This document shows positions 4,120 through 59,794 of a stretch of 64,000 nucleotides of DNA, one piece after another. The DNA is taken from the NCBI GenBank assembly GCA_964016885.1, contig OZ024747.1, positions 7,316,001 to 7,380,000 of the forward strand. The letters are read 5' to 3'. The notes below the pieces were generated by a model. The model worked only from the letters and a program-made list of their open reading frames with translations, was not told the DNA's origin and did no database searches. Source of the DNA: Eledone cirrhosa. Taxonomy: Eukaryota. Position 1 is the stretch's first letter; each line of letters opens with the position of its first letter. A program made the translations under genes and the position numbers.

Positions 4120-6339
4120 TTTTTTTATTAGCCACAAGGGCGCAACAAGAAAAGGGGACAATACAAAGACATGCCGGGGATTTTACATACAGTCGTGTAA
4201 AAAATATAAAAACAAACAATTTCAACAATCGAAATCCCCAATAGGGGGGAGGCGCCACAAATGGGTTGTTTAATACCCCGTCGATAGAACAACCCTCAAC
4301 TCCAGGAGCGTGTTGTGCAAGTGCTCCTTTCTTCCTTTTGCTCTCTTCCTCAACCTACAGGCTTATAAACAGAGAAGGCCCAATCACTCGGGCCATTTTC
4401 GCTTCATTCACCCACCTTTCAGTAAATTTACTGGGGTGCAGCGCCTCTCTCTCCACCCTGATTCTCCTTCTAAAGTGATACTTAAAGAAGGGAATCAATT
4501 GTTGTCCGGAGAGAAAGATATCTGTCCTCAGTCCTCTCAACCTCGTCCACCATATAACTTCTTTCACCATAGCCACCGTACAGAGGAAAGCCGCCTCTCT
4601 TTCGTTTTTGAAAGAGGCTGGCGGTTTGATCCTTACTATGGACTCGGCAGTCAACTGGATTTGTCCCATACGCGACAGCAGTTGTTCTGCATAGTTCCAC
4701 GGGTCGGTTACGCCCGGGCAGTGTACAATTGCGTGCAGGACTGTTTCAATGTCCTGCGCGCATCTTGGACACGTCCTCTTGTAAGGATCCCTGCCGGGGC
4801 GTCCGTGCCTGTAGATCTTGTCACGAACCGGTAGAGCTCCTCGGTAGCACTGCTATAGATCCCGGGCGGAAAGTCCTACCAAACAGACTGGTGAGCTCAT
4901 CGTCTTCGACGCCCAGAGTCTCTCCGAGCACGTCGTCGCCCTTGTAACGTACAATCCCTCTATAGAATGTCGAAGTGGAGTCTCCACTGATTGCTGCGCC
5001 CGCTTGCCAGAGGACTGTGAGCGCCTGAGCGCATTCAATGTGCCAGGCGCCCATCGTTTTCGGTCTTTTCTTCACCCAGGACTGCAGCTCCGTTAGCGAG
5101 ACGAGCTGTGGGAAAGCCTGTCTCACAAACGGTGCCCACACCGGTTGGGGGTCGGTGAGGAATACCTGGAGATGTCGCAGCCTCAGCGCATGTTTGCGCA
5201 TCATCAGCCACGGCATTCCCAGCCCTCCGTTGGAAGGGTGCTGACAGCAGACGGATCTCCTCACCAGCGGAGCCTGCTTCTTCCACAGAAACTGGAAGAG
5301 CATGCGTTCCATCTTGGCGAGGTGTTCACGGGGACAAGGCACGACAGTCAAGCGGTAGTAGATGACGGACTCTATGAAAGTGTTCGCCACCTCCGCTCGA
5401 CCTTTCAAGGACAGTTTGCACTCTGCCCACTTCTGGGTGAGTGCAAATACCTTGGCCGTGACCTCGTTCCAGTTTTTCTCCACCTGGAGGTCTGGACCGA
5501 ACCAGACCCAGAGCAATTTCCCCGGTCCGTCCGTCCAGCGTCCAACGACGCTGTCGGGCGTCATCGGTTTGCCTCTCCACATACCGAGTTGCAAACCGAA
5601 AGACTTGTCCGGGTTTAGTTTTGCTCCCGTCAGCGTTTCGTATTCTTTCAGTAAGTTGCCGATCACCCCGATTTCCGAGGTGCTCGACACCATTACCGTC
5701 ACGCCGTCGGCACAAGCCGACGCCGCTTTGCGCAGTCCCGGTTCTAGAGGGATGCCCTGCAACAGCTCTTATTTCCTCAGTAATGGTTCTAGAGTCAATA
5801 CAATCAGAATGAAGGAGAGAGGGCACCCCTGTCGAATGGAACGCGTGATTGCAAAAGGCTCCGATAGGTAGCCGTTCACCTTGACTCTCGAGCAGATGCT
5901 GGTGTGCATCGCCTCGATCCATCCTCTGAACACGAGACCGAAACCGGCCGCCTTGAGAACCGCTTCCAAGTATCGATGGTGGACCCTATCGAATGCCTTA
6001 GACTGATCCAAGTTGATCAGATCCCCACTGAAGCCGGGTTTATTACCCACCCTCTCTATGATGTATCGCATGAGGTGGAGTTTGTCGTGCATGGACCTGG
6101 TCGGGATTGCACACGTTTGCGCTTTCCCTACCAGGTTCTCGACGACAAGCGCCAACCTCGTCGCTAGCACCTTGGCCAAAATCTTTAACTCTGTGTTGAG
6201 CAGAGTTATGGGCCTGAAGTTGTTAATTTCGTCCCCCTTGTTCTCGTCTTCCCTGATCAGCGTTACTACGCCCTTGCCTGCAGAACTGGGAATTCTCCCG
6301 TTCTGCTGCCAATTGCAGTAGACGGCTTCGAGGACGCCA
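4120..6339 (-). mobile_element. 5'-truncated, inactivated Tx1/L1-clade non-LTR retrotransposon (RT, thumb, zf-RVT-type CCHC, 3' UTR)
   Basis: RPITLLNTELKILAKVLA, LDQSKAFDRVHH, RQGCPLS, catalytic YADD decayed to CADG, GGLGMP, CPRCAQDIETVLHAIVHCP; in-frame stop at 5769-5771; 3' end AATAAAAAAA abuts (TCTA)n. Confidence 0.92.
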
Positions 6340-6375
6340 GAGACAGATAGACAGACAGACAGATAGATAGATAGA

Positions 6376-6658
6376 TTTCTTTATTTACCATAAAGGCATA
6401 AAAAGAAGGGACAAATACAAAGGGGGAGTTTACATGAAATCGAGTAAAAAGGGTATAAAATGAAAATAATCGAAAACAACCTCAAACAGACAAATAGATA
6501 GATAGATATATTTCTTTATTTGTCACAAGGGCGCACAAGAAAAGGGGACAATACAAAGACATATGCCGGGGATTTTACATACAGTCGTGTAAAAAAAAAT
6601 ATAAAACAAACAATTATAACAATCGAAATCCCCTATAGGGGGGGAGGGGGAGGGGGGA
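6376..6658 (-). mobile_element. Two further short 3'-end fragments of the same or a related Tx1-like family, each separated by (GATA)n
   Basis: 6511-6640 closely matches 4121-4250 (CACAAGGGCGCA..AAGAAAAGGGGACAATACAAAGAC..GCCGGGGATTTTACATACAGTCGTGTAAAA); 6376-6485 is a more diverged version. Confidence 0.8.
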
Positions 6659-14616: not shown

Positions 14617-15048
14617 TAATTCAAAATATTAATAAATATAGGCATTCAACGTAATCAAAATATATTTTATTATATATATTTCGGAGGTACTGTGCTGTTT
14701 TTTCAGTACGTCCTCATCAGATAAAATATATAAATTGATGTATGACATACCTCAACTGTGCTGATGGTTCAATTCCAGTATTGCCAAGACTCGAATTGAA
14801 CCATCAGCACAGTTGAGGTATGTCATACATCAATTTATATATTTTATCTGATGAGGACGTACTGAAAAAATAGCACAGTACCTCCGAAATATATATAATA
14901 AAATATATTTTGATTACGTTGAATGTCTATATTTATTAATATTTTGAATTAATATTAATAACTCCAGAAAACTTCTTTGTTGAGTGCTTCTAATCTATTG
15001 TAAAACTATATTCATTGATTAATCAATGAACCTTGTTTAACTTTTGGT
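14617..15048 (+). mobile_element. PLE-pLTR-like unit, family A: 159-bp inverted repeat (14617-14775 / 14793-14951) plus about 97-nt tail, between (TA)n tracts; relative at 22152-22345 (-)
   Basis: arms differ at only a few positions; contains a hammerhead; the tail (TTGTTGAGTGCTTC.AATCTATTGTAAAA...GAACCTTGTTTAACTTTTG) recurs reverse-complemented at 22152-22233. Confidence 0.65.
14837..14908 (+). ncRNA. Minimal type-I hammerhead ribozyme motif (mirror copy at 14660-14731 on minus)
   Basis: stem I ATATATTTTAT/ATAAAATATAT (11 bp), CTGATGA, stem II GGAcGTACTG/CAGTACcTCC, GAAA, palindromic TATATA, cleavage triplet AUA. Confidence 0.75.
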
Positions 15049-15299
15049 TATATATATATATATATATATAGAAGTGTGCGTGTGTGTACATGTGTGTGTC
15101 ATATATATATATATATATATATATGACACACACATGTACACACACGCACACTTCTCACAATGCTTCTGTTAATTTTCAGTAGCATTCTTGATACGGTAAC
15201 CATGCCAAAATTAATTTACAGTAAGTTTAGTAACACCATCTAAAAACTTAATCTAATTAATTAATTAAAAGGGCTTCGTAAAAAGTAGACTTCGAATTT

Positions 15300-20810: not shown

Positions 20811-20846
20811 TCTTCTGATGAATGACTACCGTCCGAAACGTTAAGA
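20811..20846 (+). ncRNA. Minimal hammerhead ribozyme motif (sister copy at 61956-61985 on minus, truncated inside the core)
   Basis: TCTT-CTGATGA-A-TGAC-tacc-GTCC-GAAA-CG-TT-AAGA; the sister copy has perfect stem II GGAC-tggc-GTCC; palindrome AACGTT. Confidence 0.65.
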
Positions 20847-20930
20847 CCCTCTTCCTGCTATTTCAAGCGTTAACCTAATATATACCTTCCATATACTGTA
20901 CCGATTGTGTTGTTATTTCTGTTTACCTTT

Positions 20931-21246: not shown

Positions 21247-21298
<52 letters not shown>

Positions 21299-21302
<4 letters not shown>

Positions 21303-21489
21303 AGTAAGTAAGACCCCGACGGCTGAGCTCAAGCCGTTTCGACGGCTAATTCTGTACAGAATTAGACGTCGAAACGGCTTGAGCTCAGCCGTCGGGGTCT
21401 TACTTACTCCTATTTCCCACTCTACTACCCTAAGTATTGAGTACTTTGGTGCGTTATGGTCCACCTGGTTCCTTACCACTTTTCCCTCG

Positions 21490-21490
<1 letters not shown>
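21299..21490 (+). mobile_element. PLE-pLTR-like unit, family C: 114-bp palindrome plus tail; other copies at 43646-43822, 23265-23363, 63948-63991
   Basis: GGAGTAAGTAAGACCCCGACGGCTGAGCTCAAGCCGTTTCGAC...GTCGAAACGGCTTGAGCTCAGCCGTCGGGGTCTTACTTACTCC; shared tail CACTCTACTACCCTAAGTATTGAGTAC..TTCCTTACCAC..(TA)n. Confidence 0.7.
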
Positions 21491-21520
<30 letters not shown>

Positions 21521-21525
<5 letters not shown>

Positions 21526-22134
21526 ATACTTTGGGAGGGTCATGTTGCCAATAAGAAACACACGCACCAGTTGCTTTCACTTCAATTTATTATAAATTAA
21601 ATTTATAAATTTAGGAATTTATAAATTTTCCGGTTGGTTGGTTGGTTCCACAACCAGATGATTGTTCATATATTGTCAAAGTTCTTTCGTCACACATTCT
21701 GTGACCTCTTCAGTAACATGTAAATAAACAAATAAATAAACAAATAAATAAACAAATATAAACACACACAGACATCCGGATGTAACACATACGCAAACTA
21801 AGCACACAACACACACAAAAACAAGATGGCGTAGGACAAAACAAAGGAGAGGCACAAAAACAAAGAAAAGAATCCCCAGTCACTGAAGAGGTCACAGAAT
21901 GTGTGACGAAAGAACTTTGACAATATATGAACAATCATCTGGTTGTGGAACCAACCAACCAACCGGAAAATTTATAAATTCCTAAATTTATAAATTTAAT
22001 TTATAATAAATTGAAGTGAAAGCTACTAGTGCGTGTGTTTCTTATTGGCAACATGACCCTCCCAAAGTATAACAATATCGGTTTCAACACACGTTTTCAG
22101 ATAAAGAATCGTGCTAAACAAATTCAGAAACGAA
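21521..22134 (+). mobile_element. PLE-pLTR-like unit, family B: about 195-bp inverted arms plus about 56-nt tail; shorter copies at 42553-42620 and 45506-45743
   Basis: (TA)n-TTGTTATACTTTGGGAGGGTCATGTTGCCAATAAG... mirrored at 21882-22078; tail ends AAACAAATTCAGAAACGAA-(AT)n. Confidence 0.7.
21879..21921 (+). ncRNA. Minimal hammerhead ribozyme motif (mirror copy at 21675-21717 on minus)
   Basis: GTCA-CTGAAGA-G-GTCACA-gaatg-TGTGAC-GAAA-GAAC-TT-TGAC. Confidence 0.65.
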
Positions 22135-23362
22135 ATATATATATATATATATTCAAAAGTTAAACAAGGTTCAAATAATGACTTTTACAATAGATTGGAA
22201 GCACTCAACAAAAATGGTTTTCCAGAGTTATTAATATTAATTCAAAATATTAACAAAATAGATATTCTTGTGATCAAGTATATATGTATAAAAAAATATA
22301 CTTGATCACAAGAATATCTATTTTGTTAATATTTTGAATTAATATATATATATATATATATAATAATTAGAAATTGATTAACATATATATAAACATGAAT
22401 AATCACGGGAGATAATTTTTACAAGTGTGTAACCACACATAGCTAGGTGGGTAACTATGTGTGGTTACACACTTGTAAAAATCATCTCCTGTGATTATTC
22501 ATGTTTATATATATGTTAATCAATTTCTAGTTATTATAAAATGCTCGGACCGACTCGATAGAATCTTTGAGCTTATTTTCCGGGTGATATGGCGCATGCC
22601 GTTCTGGCATGACACCCATGATTTTGATTTAGATTAAATTCATTTAATTTATCTTAATTTTGTATATATATATATATATAATACAATAACAGAGAAAGCC
22701 TTAAGCTATACTCTGACTGGCTTCCGTCTCACTCAACAAACATTAGGATATACCTTAGTATAATCCCAATATTACGTTTGGGGTGCTAACTATATGTATT
22801 TTGCGGAAGGCCAGTTGTATTATTTTATATGAGACATAATTAAAATATATCTCCTTTTCCAAACAATTGTTTCATTATAAGTTTTCTACAAGTTGGGAGA
22901 ATGTGTCCGATATATATATGAAAAACAAGGGGAAGAAGAAAACTGCATGGTTGCACATGGATTACATATTATAAAATTAGTCCCTCATCAGTGATTTTGC
23001 CAACCATCATTGGTATTTCATCGCATTAAAAATCAGATACCTCAGGTTGGTGCGAGCAATAACTAAAATAAGCTATTGGGACAAGTGAAACGCGTAAAGC
23101 GAGTAAGACAAGTAAACAACAGAAGGAAAAGCAAACCGAAGGTTGGAAAATATATATATAAGAACGAGAAGGACCCCAGTCTTTTCGCAAAGAGGTCGAT
23201 TTTTTGCGTGAGCATCCGAAGGTAAAGTTTTCTCGGTGGAACTGGGATGTTCTTTGCGAAAAGACTGGGGTCCTACTCGTTCCTATTACCCACTCTACTA
23301 CCCTAAGTATTGAGTACTTTGGTGCGTTATGGTCCATCTGATTCCTTACCACATTTCCTTCG

Positions 23363-23470
<108 letters not shown>

Positions 23471-23531: not shown

Positions 23532-23587
23532 ACTGCCTGATGAGGTCATAGCCATTCAATGACTATCATCGAAATATATATAGCAGT
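23532..23587 (+). ncRNA. Minimal hammerhead ribozyme motif
   Basis: ACTGC-CTGATGA-GGTcATAG..CTATcATC-GAAA-TATATA-TA-GCAGT; perfect 5-bp stem I. Confidence 0.75.
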
Positions 23588-23628: not shown

Positions 23629-23707
<79 letters not shown>

Positions 23708-24026
23708 GACTTCTACAGGACTAGAGCTGTTTCAATAGAATGAAATCATCAAGAATTGTGATTTCATGGGAATGAAACAGTTCTAGTACTGTAGAAGTCA
23801 TGTTATATATATACTAAAGATACTCTACCCTTTTTAACTGTGGTTATCTCCCGTCACAACTCTACATTATATATATGTATATATATGTGTGTGTGCGTTT
23901 ACTGCTGTTAATATATTTATATATACACAACGCAAACACGCGCCATTTCTCGATAATCTGCTGTTTTTATTTGCGTGACCTCCTCTTTCCTCTATTTCTT
24001 CTTTGTTCTCTCCTACCCCTCCCTAC

Positions 24027-42503: not shown

Positions 42504-42556
<53 letters not shown>

Positions 42557-42619
42557 ATACTTTGGGAGGGTCATGTTGCCAATAATGATAAAGATTCTTG
42601 CCAAACAAATTCAGAAACG

Positions 42620-43237: not shown

Positions 43238-44427
43238 CTATTTTTAGAAACATTGTGCGGATGTGTATTTATTTAAAATTTAGAAGCTTCATCCTATCTT
43301 TTGGACTAGGTAAAATAGTTTAACGAATTGGGGAGAAAAGCACCTGGGCAGAAAATTGAAAGCATAGCCCGGGCGACGATCGTTGTATCATATATCGATC
43401 TTTATATATATCTTTTAAAAAAGATCGATATATAATATAACTGTTTCTACTTTTGGCACAAGGCCAGCAATTTTTCCAGTGTATTACTGGTACTTTATTT
43501 TATCGACCCGGGCGCTTCATCATCATATATAAAGCATCTGAAACTGTATTGATCCCCCGCGAAGGATTGTTCATGAACTTGTCTCGTCCGGGTTTTTTGT
43601 TTCCTACATTTCCCCTACGTGTTTGTTTAAGGATATATATATATATAGGAGAGAGTATGACCCCGACGGCAGAGCTCAAGCCGTTTCGACGGCTATTTTT
43701 GGACTAATAGAAATAGCCGTCGAAACGGCTTGAGCTCTGCCGTCGGGGTCATACTCTCTCCTATTACTCACTCTACTACCCTAAGTATTGAGTACTCTGG
43801 TTCCTTACCACACCTCCTCCGTTATATATATATATATATATATATACAATATTAAATAAATGGAAAACTATATTTATAAAACCATATTTATTTCATTATA
43901 TATATTTCGGGGATATCATATTAACAATATGCTATGCCTTCATCAGACAAAATACAATATAAACAGTTTTATAGATAAATATATTCGACATACCGTAATA
44001 AACATCAACTTCATTTGAAGAGGTTTACGCTAGCAGTGAAAATATAGAGAGAAAGAAAGAGAGAAAGAAAAAAGGGAAAAACGAAAGAAAGAAAGACAAA
44101 ACGAAGAAAATATTTGTCGAGTGCTTTTATATCAGTTATAAATATTTACTAGTTGTAACCCAACAATTTTAAATATAACTTTTCATATATATATATATAT
44201 ATATATATTATAAATGTAAGCTATCGCCGTATTTTGACTAAAGAAATTAAAGAAATTATTTAGCCTGATAGTGGGGTTAAGAACCCTCGGAGAAATGGAA
44301 AAAAATGAGGGTTCTTAACCCCACTATCAGGTTAAATAATTTTCTTTAATTTCTTGAATCAAAATAGGGCGATAGCTTACATTTATAATTTCAAACTCGC
44401 TCGTTGTTTCGAAAATATTCTTACTTT

Positions 44428-49217
<4,790 letters not shown>

Positions 49218-54727: not shown

Positions 54728-56449
54728 TAAGGAAACTATAGAGGTATAAAGTTGATGGACCAGGTCATGAAAGTAACAGAAAGAGTTATAGCACAGCTGA
54801 TTAGGGACCGGGTGAATATAGACGAGATGCAATTTGGGGTGTACCAGGAAGAGGCACCACTGATGCCCTCTTCCTTGTGAGGCAATTACAGGAAAATTAC
54901 CTAGCTAAAAGTAAGCCACTCTACTTGGCATTTGTCGACCTTGAGAAAGCCTTTGACAGAGTTCCACGTGCTGTAATCTGGTGGGCTCTTAGAAAACTAG
55001 GAGTAGATGAATGGCTTGTGAAAGCGGTACAAGCCATGTATAGGGGAGCAGTCAGCAAAGTTAGGATTAGCATTGAGTATAGCGAGGAATTTAGCGTACA
55101 GGTTGGGGTCCACCAGGGCTCTGTTCTTAGCCCTCTCCTGTTCATCATAGTCCTGCAGGCAATAACGGAGGAGTTTAAGACCGGATGCCCATGGGAACTC
55201 CTGTATGCTAATGACCTCGCACTCATAGCTGAATCTATGGTAGAACTAGAGAATAAATTCCAAACCTGGAAGCAGGGACTAGAGAGAAAGGGTCTCAAAG
55301 TCAACATGACAAAGACTAAGGTCCTTGTAAGTAGACGAGAAAACAGAACCCAGATCCCCTCAGGGAAATGGCCTTGCTCAGTGTGTAGGAAAGGTGTAGG
55401 TAGGAACTCCATTCTCTGCCCCAAATGTAAACAATGGGTACACAAGAGATGTAGCGGGATCTCAGGAAGCTTAATTAAGAATGTAGGATTCACATGCAGC
55501 AGCTGTGCTGAAACAGCAAGCAACAAACAGCCACAGGAAACAAGTACCACCAATCTCTGGGAGGGCCCTGTAGAAACAGTAGACAGCTTCTGCTACCTAG
55601 GTGACCGAATTAGCAACGGAGGTGGGTGTTCAGAAAGTACAATAACTAGGGTAAGAACGGGATGGAAGAAGTTTAGGGAACTACTACCACTGCTAGCTGC
55701 AAAAGGCTTCTCCCTCAGAATGAAAGGCAGACTGTATGATGCGTGTATCCGAACAGCGATGTTGCATGGTAGTAAGACCTGGGCGCTGAAGGTGGAAGAC
55801 TTACGTAGATTAGAGAGAAATGAAGCCTGCATGCTCCGATGGATGTGTAACAGTAATATACGTGAACGACAAAGCATAAATGAATTGAGAGAGAGACTGA
55901 GCATAAGAGGAATCAAATGCTGTGTGCAGGAGAGGCGGTTGCGCTGGTATGGACATGTGATGCGTATGAAGGATGACAGCTGCATAAAAAGGTGCAGAGC
56001 ACTAGAAGTTGATGGAAACCGCGGAGTGGGGAGACCCAAGATGACCTGGGATGAGGTGATAAAAGCCGACCTTACCCAATTACACGACCGTGACTTCTGG
56101 CCTCACGCAGTAATACAGAGTACCCGACCTCCCATGGGTACATGCTGAAGCATATAAACAATATGCCCCCACACCCCCCACCGCAAGCTGGTCGTGGAGG
56201 TGCCACGGCAAAAAAGCACCCAGCCCACACTGTAAAGTGGACGTGTAGGCGCCACGAAAAAGCACCCAGCACTCACTGTAAATGAGGTTGGTGTTAGGAA
56301 GGGCATCCAGCTGTAGAAATCAAGCCAGATCAGTTCCTGTATGAGCAAGGCATGGTCAGCCGACCAGACACTGCCCACAACAGGACAACCCGTCTAACCC
56401 ATGCTAGCGTGGAAGAACGGATGTAAAACGGTGATGATGATGATGATGA
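54728..56449 (+). mobile_element. 5'-truncated RTE-clade LINE (RT, internal PHD-type finger, 3' UTR, (GAT)n tail)
   Basis: GNYRGIKLM, EMQFG (frameshift about 54836), FVDLEKAFDRVPR, GVHQGSVLSPLLF, YANDL (YADD mutated), FCYLG, RLRWYGHVMR, GRPKMTW; ends GTAAAACG(GAT)n. Confidence 0.93.
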
Positions 56450-57104: not shown

Positions 57105-57600
57105 GGATATTTGAAATAGTTAACGAGATGTGAGGCTTGACTTTCTGTTTGTATATAGGTAAATAGGAGGCTTTAGTTGGTTAGCAGCTTAGGCAGTGAA
57201 GCAGTAACTGGCCTAAAGAATGACAATTAAAGCAGTCTTTTATCAATAATTGGAGCAGAATGTTTGAGCCTCATTGTGCTGTTGCAAAAACTTGTCTGCA
57301 TCTTTGTAAAGGTGTGTCTAAGCTGGTAAAAAGTGTATATGTTTACTCACATACACATGTTGTACACAAAATTTTAACTAGGAGACTTTGTCAATAACTA
57401 TTTGGCAGTTATATACAGCAATAAGCTACAATACCTATTTACAATTTTGTAGGTATGGGCAAACAGATTGTGTTTTGGTTTTGGTGACAAGGAATAATTT
57501 GTCAACCCATTAGGTTGTCTGGTGCCTCAAACACAAGTGAATCTCATTACATATTTAACAAATTAAAAACAGCATAGTCTTGGTTGTTTTAGTTCCCTGT

Positions 57601-58026
57601 TTAGCCTTTTAGCATTTAAACCGGCCATATCCGGCCAGAATTCTCTCACCCCTTTCTTTTCAAACTGGTCATAACCAGCCACTCATACCGACATTAAGGT
57701 ATTGTTCTCAAAATAAATATCAAAATCTCATAGATTCGATATTATGTCAGATAAAGCCTTTTCTGTGAAAATACAATAGTAAATATAGAGTAATGTGAAT
57801 GTTAAAAAGTTAATGCTAAGTTACATGTATATTTACTATTGTATTTTCACAGAAAAGGCTGTATCTCACATAATTATGTCATAATATCGAATCTATGAGA
57901 TTTTGACATTATTTATTTTGAGAATAATACCTTAACATCATGTTTGAATGGCTGGTTACGACCGGTTTGAACAGAACGGGGTGGAGAGAATTCTGGATAG
58001 GGCCAGTTTAAATACTAAAGGGTTAA
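57601..58026. mobile_element. Two adjacent, oppositely oriented copies of the 18701-type piggyBac MITE
   Basis: 57601-57813 is the reverse complement and about 57820-58026 the forward copy of 18701-18921; the right end reads AATACTAAAGGG|TTAA. Confidence 0.75.
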
Positions 58027-59794
58027 ATCTAATATCCAACACATGCTTCAATAGCATTCATATCTAGTCTCAAAGTTAGAGGAATCACATTCTATTTTAC
58101 ATATTCAGTTAATACAGTGTTATGTTATAGTTATTGTTGTTAGGGAGCTTCAAAGCATTTAATAAATATTTCAGCTTTCTCATTGGGACACTGTCACAAT
58201 ATTTGAGGGCTCAAAACATTTGCTCGAATGTAGAGATTCTTGAATAAGATTTCATTTTTCCATTTTGCAGGCCTAATGACTACACCAGCACGTTTTCTAT
58301 TACAAAATGCTGTTTGATACAAGTTGGGCATTTTTCATACAAATTGTTTTCTGTTTAATTTGTCACTTGAAAGATTTTTTTGATTTTTTACTTAATAGAA
58401 CCAACATATTATCTAGTAGCAACAAAACTTTAAACACTTTGTAACAATACAATTGATCATGACTTCTAAGTTGTTGTCTACTGTTATGACTTATATCTTT
58501 GTATTCACATGAGCTACTTAAAATAGGAGCCAAATCTTTTTTTTCAATTCACACACTACCATCTTGAAAAAAAAAAGGAAGAACATAGTAGATAATTTAG
58601 CACCAGATATATTATATCTTAATAAAAGCTGTAGTGCCTTTAATAATAGGTTTACTGGAGTTACAATAACTTGTAAAGGCAGAATGTTGTAGTAATTACC
58701 AATGTATATATAAAGTATTATATTATTATATATATTATCATCATCATCATTTAACATACATTTTCCATACCTGCATGTGTTAGACGAGTTGTCACGAGAC
58801 AAATCAGGTCCAGACACCTTGTATGCTCATATAGATCTGTAATTTGGCTTGGTTTCTATGGTTGGATGCACTTAATAATAATAATGAAATTATTGTGTAC
58901 AGTGCTCAGGTGCACTACAACTCATCAAAGGTGCATGTATAGTACATAGAATAATGTACAAATGTCAGGAAAATGAACAGTGTATGAGTCATGATATAAT
59001 AATAATAACAATAATGAAATATTGTGTACAGTGCCCTAACACCAACCACATTACAGTATGGACTGGGTGCTTTTTATCATGGCACCAAAATGACCACTAT
59101 ACAGGGTGAGCTGGGCGCTTTTTGCAATGTCACCAGCATGACCACTTTTGGCATTGAAACGTTACAGGGTAAACTCGGTGCTTTTTGCCATGTCAACACA
59201 TCTAGAAGAAACGTCCCCACCTTATAATTGTCTTTTCATTTAATAATACATGTGAATGTGTTTTAAAAGTTATTTCATTGCTTAAAATGAAACTCATGAT
59301 TCTATTTGTGATTTCTAGAGCATTAGTTATTGGCTTTGTTTGATAATCAATCACAATTCTTGATCATGTTCTGTATTTAAATCTTACCTAGCTCAAAGAT
59401 TGAATTGTTTCATTAGCCTCTCTAAGTTTATCAAATAAGTATCACCAAATATTGGAGTCAGTGTAATCAATATATATTTCAATTGATTTTCAATGTAATC
59501 AAGATTTTGGAGGAGTTTAGTAACCTCGACGGCATTAGCTATGCCATGCATGGAAAGCCATTTCTGCAAGAGATATAGAAAATAAATAGCGCTGACCATC
59601 ACTGCCCATGTTATGAGAAAAGCATTATCAATTTAAACACTTGGCAAAGACATTTGCTGTTGTGTTTATGTCCTTATAGTATCATTTGGGTACCAGTTGA
59701 TTGTTAAATATGTATTACCAAATTTTGCCTTAAGCACCAGGTTGACAATTGGCAAGATATGAATGAAGTTCCTCATAATAATAATAATGATAAT

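What the first reader, a model, noticed from the sequence alone, without database searches (positions are those of the whole stretch)
21521..22134. Stereotyped 'inverted copy + forward copy + unique tail' architecture with a family-fixed inversion start
Seen: three family-B copies (21521, 42553, 45506) begin at essentially the same base, (TA)n-(T)TGTTATACTTTGGG. This is the reverse complement of an internal AACAATAT site about 56 nt from the shared 3' end (..CAGAAACGA(A)-(AT)n), while the internal inversion junction differs in every copy. Family C (21299, 43646) and family A (14617, 22345) also have fixed outer boundaries at TA-containing internal sites. Established: Penelope insertions often have an inverted 5' pLTR and a short 3' 'tail'. 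Inference: the second (TA)n target strand primes at a defined internal TA/ATAT microhomology (twin-priming-like), so each insertion creates a new palindrome.
Basis: partly seen in the sequence, partly recalled or inferred. Interest (0 to 1): 0.75.

Follow-up and report, generated by a model that had tools for sequence, protein, structure and literature searches.

The report
Two-start Penelope retrotransposon insertion stubs
These mirror-image pieces in TA repeats are stumps of very abundant Penelope-type jumping genes in a layout already described for that class; the addition here is that the two outer ends of one insertion nearly always sit at two different fixed sites, likely because each cut DNA strand starts its own copy of the element's RNA.

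Summary
Families B and C are Penelope-like retrotransposons (PLEs): B is Neptune/Nematis-type and C is Hydra-type by motif. A is probably one too. The fixed inversion start (S1) is the pLTR end and the shared 3' end (S2) is the tail end. These match the two reverse-transcription start sites reported in vitro for another PLE (PMC11167929), and the layout is published. Measured here: 16,068 exact S1-(TA)n junctions for B; 40 of 45 head-to-head pairs join one S1 end to one S2 end (50% expected); 12-13-bp target duplications flank 3 of 7 such units in non-TA targets; raw reads show both ends. ATAT (B) or TAT (C) lies at both starts, but a longer ATATAT nearby is unused (0 of 100) and non-TA targets need only 1-3 nt, so microhomology does not set the site. 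About half of copies are not inverted. Arms overlap in 44 of 50 B pairs, unlike L1 twin priming on one RNA. Inner junctions cluster at a predicted transcription start in C and A. This scan noted the same class on other DNA before. Verdict: known kind, with a testable mechanistic rule.

The parts
21491..21521 (.). (TA)n target, left of family-B copy B1; last ATAT also matches the element at S1
21522..21714 (-). B1 inverted arm beginning at start site S1; lacks the 5' strand of hammerhead stem I
21711..21714 (.). CAGT microhomology at the inner head-to-head junction of B1
21711..22078 (+). B1 forward arm up to S1 (pLTR part)
21879..21921 (+). minimal hammerhead-like motif (GUCA/UGAC stem I, CUGAAGA, 6-bp stem II, GAAA); activity untested
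21923..21928 (+). ATATAT control site, longer than the S1 microhomology but not used as a start
22053..22138 (+). probable first codons of the ORF; the frame continues past S2 in near-full copies L189 and L193 (read by eye)
22075..22078 (+). start site S1 (ATAT, followed by CG in the element)
22079..22138 (+). tail between S1 and S2; S2 ends in ATAT, followed by CG in near-full copies
42553..42619 (.). B2: 33-nt S1 arm (minus) and 33-nt tail-only arm (plus); arms do not overlap, no palindrome
45507..45747 (.). B3: S1 arm 45507-45650 (minus), S2 arm 45648-45747 (plus)
21298..21493 (.). family C (Hydra-type PLE) copy: S1 arm minus, S2 arm plus, S1 at 21413, 80-nt tail, inner junction at the predicted transcription start
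43645..43825 (.). family C copy, S1 at 43764, tail shortened by an internal deletion
14617..15050 (.). family A copy: S1 arm minus, S2 arm plus, S1 at 14955, tail about 95 nt, hammerhead-like motif 14840-14905, junction at the predicted transcription start
22154..22345 (-). diverged family A copy in the (TA)n that closes B1, opposite orientation

Best explanation
These are 5'-truncated insertions of Penelope-like retrotransposons whose two outer ends sit at two fixed sites, S1 and S2, and each end was likely primed by its own nicked target strand before the two copies were likely joined head to head. Shown: RT and C-terminal GIY-YIG in family B, PLE motifs in family C, two fixed ends 60-96 nt apart, strong one-S1-one-S2 pairing, 12-13-bp target duplications around some units, solo copies ending at either site. 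Inferred: the endonuclease makes staggered nicks about 12 bp apart in (TA)n; the protein places one 3' end at S2 and the other at S1; the short TAT/ATAT match only sets the register; the cDNAs stop early or run off the RNA 5' end at the pLTR promoter; their ends are joined through microhomology, a natural palindrome or untemplated bases. About one pair in eight fits classic twin priming on one RNA (S2 arm stops inside the tail). The rest need the same stretch copied twice, likely from two RNAs of one source or by displacement on one RNA. If only one strand primes, an ordinary solo copy results.
For: Identity: RVT_1 (E 2.4e-4, below the curated cut-off) and GIY-YIG (above cut-off) in L036; 717-aa frame with Hydra-type motifs in a tandem array. 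Pairing: 40 of 45 head-to-head pairs within 4 kb and 34 of 36 within 1.5 kb are mixed, 50% expected, p 4e-8. B: 50 mixed against 4 like-ended among 73 pairs. C: 28 against 3, and 14 against 2; A: 12 against 0, and 3 against 0. Two 10-20-kb tandem arrays of C are also bounded by S2 and an inverted S1. Target duplications on 3 of 7 testable mixed pairs. The S1 arm reaches further than the S2 arm in 22 of 50 pairs, and the S2 arm is tail-only in 6. Arms of a pair are more alike than arms of different pairs (median 0.972 against 0.945, 27 pairs). Of 23 junctions without an insert, 15 overlap by 3 nt or more; 5% expected for random joins. 70 of 113 C arms end within -6..+12 of a TATA/Inr-like start; raw-read depth is thousands-fold only between S2 and that point and roughly 50-100 times lower outside. 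Two internal RT starts bounding the tail and extension of both strands in vitro: PMC11167929.
Against: No biochemistry here. PMC11167929 saw no difference in start site between strands and no homology at the start for Poseidon. 13 of 50 B pairs have arms ending within 12 nt of each other (3 expected), which fold-back also predicts. 4 of 7 testable pairs lack a clear target duplication (1 ambiguous, 3 none). Later deletion at palindrome centres could change arm lengths, and gene conversion could make arms alike. The transcription starts are predicted from motifs only; the B peak is weak (46 of 302 arms within -20..+9). Several samples were chosen by one end, so only searches are balanced. Family A has no ORF evidence here, and its sequence beyond S2 was not found.
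Confidence: 0.68

Rival explanations
1. Fold-back and resolution: one cDNA primed at S2 folds back on itself, is extended into a hairpin, and the endonuclease cuts it at S1; only one target strand primes. This is close to the self-priming idea in PMC3846280 and the EN-resolution remark in PMC8557442.
For: Explains mixed pairing and same-source arms directly; 13 of 50 B pairs and most C and A pairs have arms ending together; the D. virilis EN needs the tail for cleavage (PMC11167929).
Against: The S1 arm is longer than the S2 arm in 22 of 50 B pairs, and 6 S2 arms never reach S1; in C the S1 arm is longer by more than 10 nt in 6 of 28 (counted by eye); long copies end at S1 without a tail arm in view.
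Confidence: 0.17
2. One reading: the second target strand finds S1 simply by TA/ATAT base pairing on the same RNA, as in L1 twin priming.
For: ATAT or TAT at both starts in B and C; 6 of 50 B pairs and 4 of 28 C pairs have non-overlapping arms.
Against: Longer ATATAT unused, 0 of 100; many other TAT sites unused; S1 used with 1-3 nt overlap in non-TA targets; 44 of 50 pairs overlap.
Confidence: 0.08
3. Two independent insertions into the same (TA)n, a shared palindromic MITE, or assembly artefacts.
For: PLE copies do pile up in the same TA repeats.
Against: Arms abut head to head with no TA between; mixed pairing far above chance; 50 of 50 distinct junctions; one target duplication around whole units; joints in raw reads.
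Confidence: 0.03

Closest known systems
EN+ Penelope-like elements: pLTR, adjacent inverted 5'-truncated copy, tail at one end (PMC3846280 passages; PMC8557442 passages and sections 11, 15)
   Same: Head-to-head inverted copy, one-sided tail covering the sequence after the pLTR, partial tandems, (TA)n targets, hammerhead-like motifs in A and B, short target duplications.
   Different: Tails here are 56-96 nt, not 30-40. Copy number is in the tens of thousands. The pairing is quantified here; the passages read state it only as 'often only at one end'.
Poseidon of Anolis (PAc) in vitro: two internal RT start sites bounding the tail (PMC11167929, parts 1-2 of 4 read)
   Same: Two fixed starts near the pLTR-ORF junction, AT-rich target, both strands extended.
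   Different: PAc starts are reported as not homologous to the target and alike on both strands; here both starts carry TAT or ATAT matching the (TA)n target, and the two ends of one insertion take different starts.
L1 twin priming (recalled, not read here)
   Same: Both target strands prime cDNA; the products are joined head to head with microhomology inside one target duplication.
   Different: In L1 the second start is variable and the two parts do not overlap; here both starts are fixed and the arms overlap in about 88% of B pairs.
Hydra clade of PLEs (PMC8557442 section 11)
   Same: Family C has RWR, DKT, a CxCX5C linker, no CCHH, CxxC and CxH around E and N, (TA)n targets.
   Different: Unit is 3.5 kb rather than under 3 kb; no canonical hammerhead core was found in the copy examined; no tree was built.

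Membership tests
EN+ Penelope-like element (family B) | single ORF with RT and C-terminal GIY-YIG | tested here: met
   on separate pieces of the broken copy L036; RT hit is below the Pfam cut-off, GIY-YIG above
EN+ Penelope-like element (family B) | pLTR and tail overlapping the 5' end of the ORF region | tested here: met
   the tail sequence recurs at the 5' end of near-full copies L189 and L193 and continues into the ORF
EN+ Penelope-like element (family B) | hammerhead motif in the pLTR | tested here: met
   motif and 4-bp stem I; no hammerhead among the 150 Rfam rows shown of 218; cleavage untested
EN+ Penelope-like element (family B) | inverted 5'-truncated copy with one-sided tail and target duplication | tested here: met
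Neptune/Nematis-type (family B) | CX2-5CxxC linker and CCHH in the endonuclease | tested here: met
   CX4CxxC linker and two Cys inside the GIY-YIG core read; criteria
Neptune versus Nematis (family B) | placement in an RT tree | not tested
   no reference proteins on hand
Hydra clade (family C) | RWK, DKT, CxCX5C linker, no CCHH, flanking CxxC and CxH | tested here: met
   read by eye; RWR in place of RWK. Pfam and PDB gave no hit; Atlas neighbours carry GIY-YIG or RVT_1 in part
Hydra clade (family C) | canonical hammerhead | tested here: inconclusive
   stems visible by eye but the core reads CUUGAGAA in the array copy; pattern scans found none
Hydra clade (family C) | placement in an RT tree | not tested
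   no tree built
EN+ Penelope-like element (family A) | RT and GIY-YIG ORF | tested here: inconclusive
   no long copy recovered; architecture and hammerhead-like motif only
L1-type twin priming | non-overlapping parts of one RNA, variable internal start | tested here: not met
   44 of 50 pairs overlap; start fixed
MITE | copies share one internal structure | tested here: not met
   50 distinct junctions in 50 pairs; base-level differences in C and A

The most novel reading that the evidence does not exclude
PLE integration is an asymmetric double-priming reaction: one complex, perhaps the dimer predicted for PAc, assigns one nicked target strand to the tail-end start and the other to the pLTR-end start, registered by TAT/ATAT pairing in TA-targeting clades. 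This one rule would explain the tail, the inverted pLTR and the promoter-bounded stubs in clades as distant as Neptune-type and Hydra-type elements.
Probability: 0.5. Interest if true: 0.6.

Novelty: new member of a known kind. Interest (0 to 1): 0.36.

Why it matters
How PLEs form their inverted, one-tailed insertions is named as open in PMC8557442 (section 15). The pairing rule, the staggered target duplication and the promoter-bounded stubs give sharp predictions for the in vitro system that already exists. The process has also left tens of thousands of short palindromes, many with hammerhead-like motifs, in this genome; they explain many apparent hairpin or ribozyme findings as by-products. 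The architecture itself is not new.

Tried and rejected
Rfam: the 150 rows shown were matches below the gathering score, mostly to TA-rich microRNA models; no hammerhead among them. The repeat finder was swamped by (TA)n arrays. The first search for sequence beyond S2 in B (30 loci read) excluded the true continuation and showed no shared one; it was found by walking from the RT region. Family A continuation: two patterns gave 3 and 2 hits; the first three were flanks and I did not read the ends of the last two. L204 looked like a continuation but is an A/D chimera. Family C protein: no Pfam or PDB hit. No RNA holder on record was listed, so transcription starts could not be checked. No long-read run was offered. 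Empty-site comparison between individuals was not possible. One search mislabelled S1 because the reference copy is mutated there; classes were recomputed. Untemplated-insert calls (26 of 49) are inflated by mismatches to the seven reference copies. Literature searches for a pairing rule or PLE twin priming listed none by title or abstract; Arkhipova 2006, Evgen'ev and Arkhipova 2005 and all supplements were not seen and may already state it.

Full report
Observation. B1 has an inverted arm 21522-21714 and a forward arm 21711-22138 with a 4-nt overlap; B3 is alike; B2 has a 33-nt inverted arm and a 33-nt tail-only arm, so it is not a palindrome. I call the fixed inversion start S1 and the shared 3' end S2. 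In the genome (3.0 Gb), an exact pattern for S1 running into (TA)n occurs 16,068 times and the read-through of S1 14,200 times; reversed controls give 0. Raw Illumina reads from 2026 runs show about 1,060 reads each leaving B at S1 into (AT)n, plus strand-switch joints. For C, thousands of reads end at S2 and S1. These are RAD-seq runs, so depths are not copy numbers, and this exact locus was not spanned.

What the families are. [quoted passage not shown] Near-full copies of about 4 kb begin inside the tail and continue past S2 into the ORF, which is the pLTR-tail-ORF overlap described in PMC3846280 (passages). C occurs in 3.5-kb tandem arrays with an uninterrupted frame showing RWR, DKT, CxCX5C and no CCHH, the Hydra features of PMC8557442 section 11. 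Pfam and PDB gave no hit for it. For A only short copies were recovered; it has the same layout and a hammerhead-like motif. Clade names rest on motifs, not on a tree.

The two ends are paired. From the first 100 S1 junctions and the 95 tail read-throughs in the same 35 Mb of contig C1, 40 of 45 head-to-head pairs within 4 kb join an S1 end to a tailed end; independent choice predicts 50% (p 4e-8). In 150 B loci there are 73 distinct pairs: 50 S1+S2, 2 S1+S1, 2 S2+S2, 13 with an end elsewhere and 6 cut by the locus edge. C gives 28 mixed against 3 like-ended in loci not chosen and 14 against 2 in those chosen by it; A gives 12 against 0 and 3 against 0. Many of these loci were selected by one end; some searches were not. 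Two tandem arrays of C spanning about 10 and 20 kb are also closed by S2 at one side and an inverted S1 at the other. Among 7 mixed B pairs with a non-TA flank at S2, 3 have a clear 12-13-bp target duplication, 1 is ambiguous and 3 have none; 4 of 12 such solo copies have one. So at least some units are single events at staggered nicks. About half of copies are solo: 29 of 60 complete tail-bearing copies, from 70 loci of which 3 gave no hit and 7 were cut by the edge.

Microhomology. In B the element reads AATAT then CG at both S1 and S2; in C it reads TAT at both; in A S1 has ATAT and the sequence beyond S2 is unknown. But a longer ATATAT just after the B hammerhead gives no TA junction in the first 100 of 11,260 matches, other TAT sites are not used as main starts, and in non-TA targets S1 is kept with 1-3 nt of overlap (read by eye). 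The site is therefore likely set by the protein-RNA complex, and pairing only fixes the register. This softens the contrast with PAc, whose start is reported as non-homologous (PMC11167929).

Inner junctions. All 50 B junctions differ, which excludes one palindromic MITE. The S1 arm reaches further in 22 pairs, the S2 arm in 15, and 13 end within 12 nt of each other (3 expected by permutation). In 6 pairs the S2 arm stays inside the tail; in 44 the arms overlap. Arms of one unit are more alike than arms of different units (0.972 against 0.945, 27 pairs with 100 nt or more of overlap). Of 49 junctions parsed, 26 show inserted bases (an overcount), 2 are blunt, 6 overlap by 1-2 nt, 10 by 3-12 nt and 5 lie in a natural AT palindrome; random joins reach 3 nt in 5%. 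In C, 70 of 113 arms end within -6..+12 of a TATA-like plus initiator-like site; in A, 25 of 44 (sample partly selected for reach) and 6 of 16 (unselected); in B the peak is weak. Raw-read depth for C falls about 50-100-fold outside the stretch from S2 to that site. The promoter motifs are recalled consensus shapes and no RNA data were available.

Mechanism. Most likely both nicked strands prime cDNA, one at S2 and one at S1, and the two cDNAs are joined at their 3' ends (0.68). The tail-only class fits one RNA; the overlapping majority needs two passes over the same stretch from the same source. Fold-back with endonuclease resolution (0.17) explains pairing and symmetric ends but not longer S1 arms or tail-only S2 arms, unless later deletions made them. 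Pure microhomology twin priming (0.08) fails its control.

Comparison and novelty. The inverted copy with a one-sided tail is standard for EN+ PLEs (PMC3846280 passages; PMC8557442 passages and sections 11, 15), and two RT starts bounding the tail were shown in vitro (PMC11167929, parts 1-2 of 4). Seven searches listed no paper that, by title or abstract, quantifies the pairing or calls it twin priming; older subscription reviews and supplements were not seen. This scan has filed the same class in this and other genomes. The elements are new members of a known kind; the pairing statistics are a modest, testable addition. Interest 0.36.

Noticed in passing
L296-L300 (G000:C1:91473097-91493801 and C1:377711724-377722356): Tandem arrays of family C with a 3.5-kb period and uninterrupted frames, closed by S2 at one end and an inverted S1 at the other; long multi-unit insertions obey the same rule.
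   Followed up: partly
L204:1336-1500: Chimeric arm joining a family-A tail piece to the end of another family (D), head to head with an A arm; suggests a template jump between families.
   Followed up: partly
many loci, e.g. L122, L161, L176, L287: A further family (D) with the same two fixed ends in (TA)n, about 85-90 nt apart; no ORF sought.
   Followed up: no
window 22362-22535, 44208-44388, 23158-23366, 23706-23801, 57600-58027: More palindromes next to TA runs; 23158-23366 ends in a family-C tail; 23538-23585 and 20817-20848 carry hammerhead-like cores read by eye.
   Followed up: no
window 15070-15155: Perfect palindrome of CA/TG repeats centred on a TA run, unrelated to the PLE ends.
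   Followed up: no
window 44763-45049 and 46811-47097: 287-bp direct duplication (98%) beside long TATG-type arrays; could be a local duplication or an assembly repeat.
   Followed up: no
window 4821-6380 (minus) and 54805-56148 (minus): Fragments that look like two LINE-type reverse transcriptase ORFs, judged by eye.
   Followed up: no
L189:5050-5350: Family B ORF contains an AAC-rich, Asn/Thr-rich stretch, reminiscent of the N-rich inserts described for rotifer PLEs in PMC3846280.
   Followed up: no
family B, tail-only arms (L057, L068, L090, L093, L140): Five of six tail-only S2 arms stop 22-32 nt short of S1, as if blocked by a complex sitting at S1.
   Followed up: no
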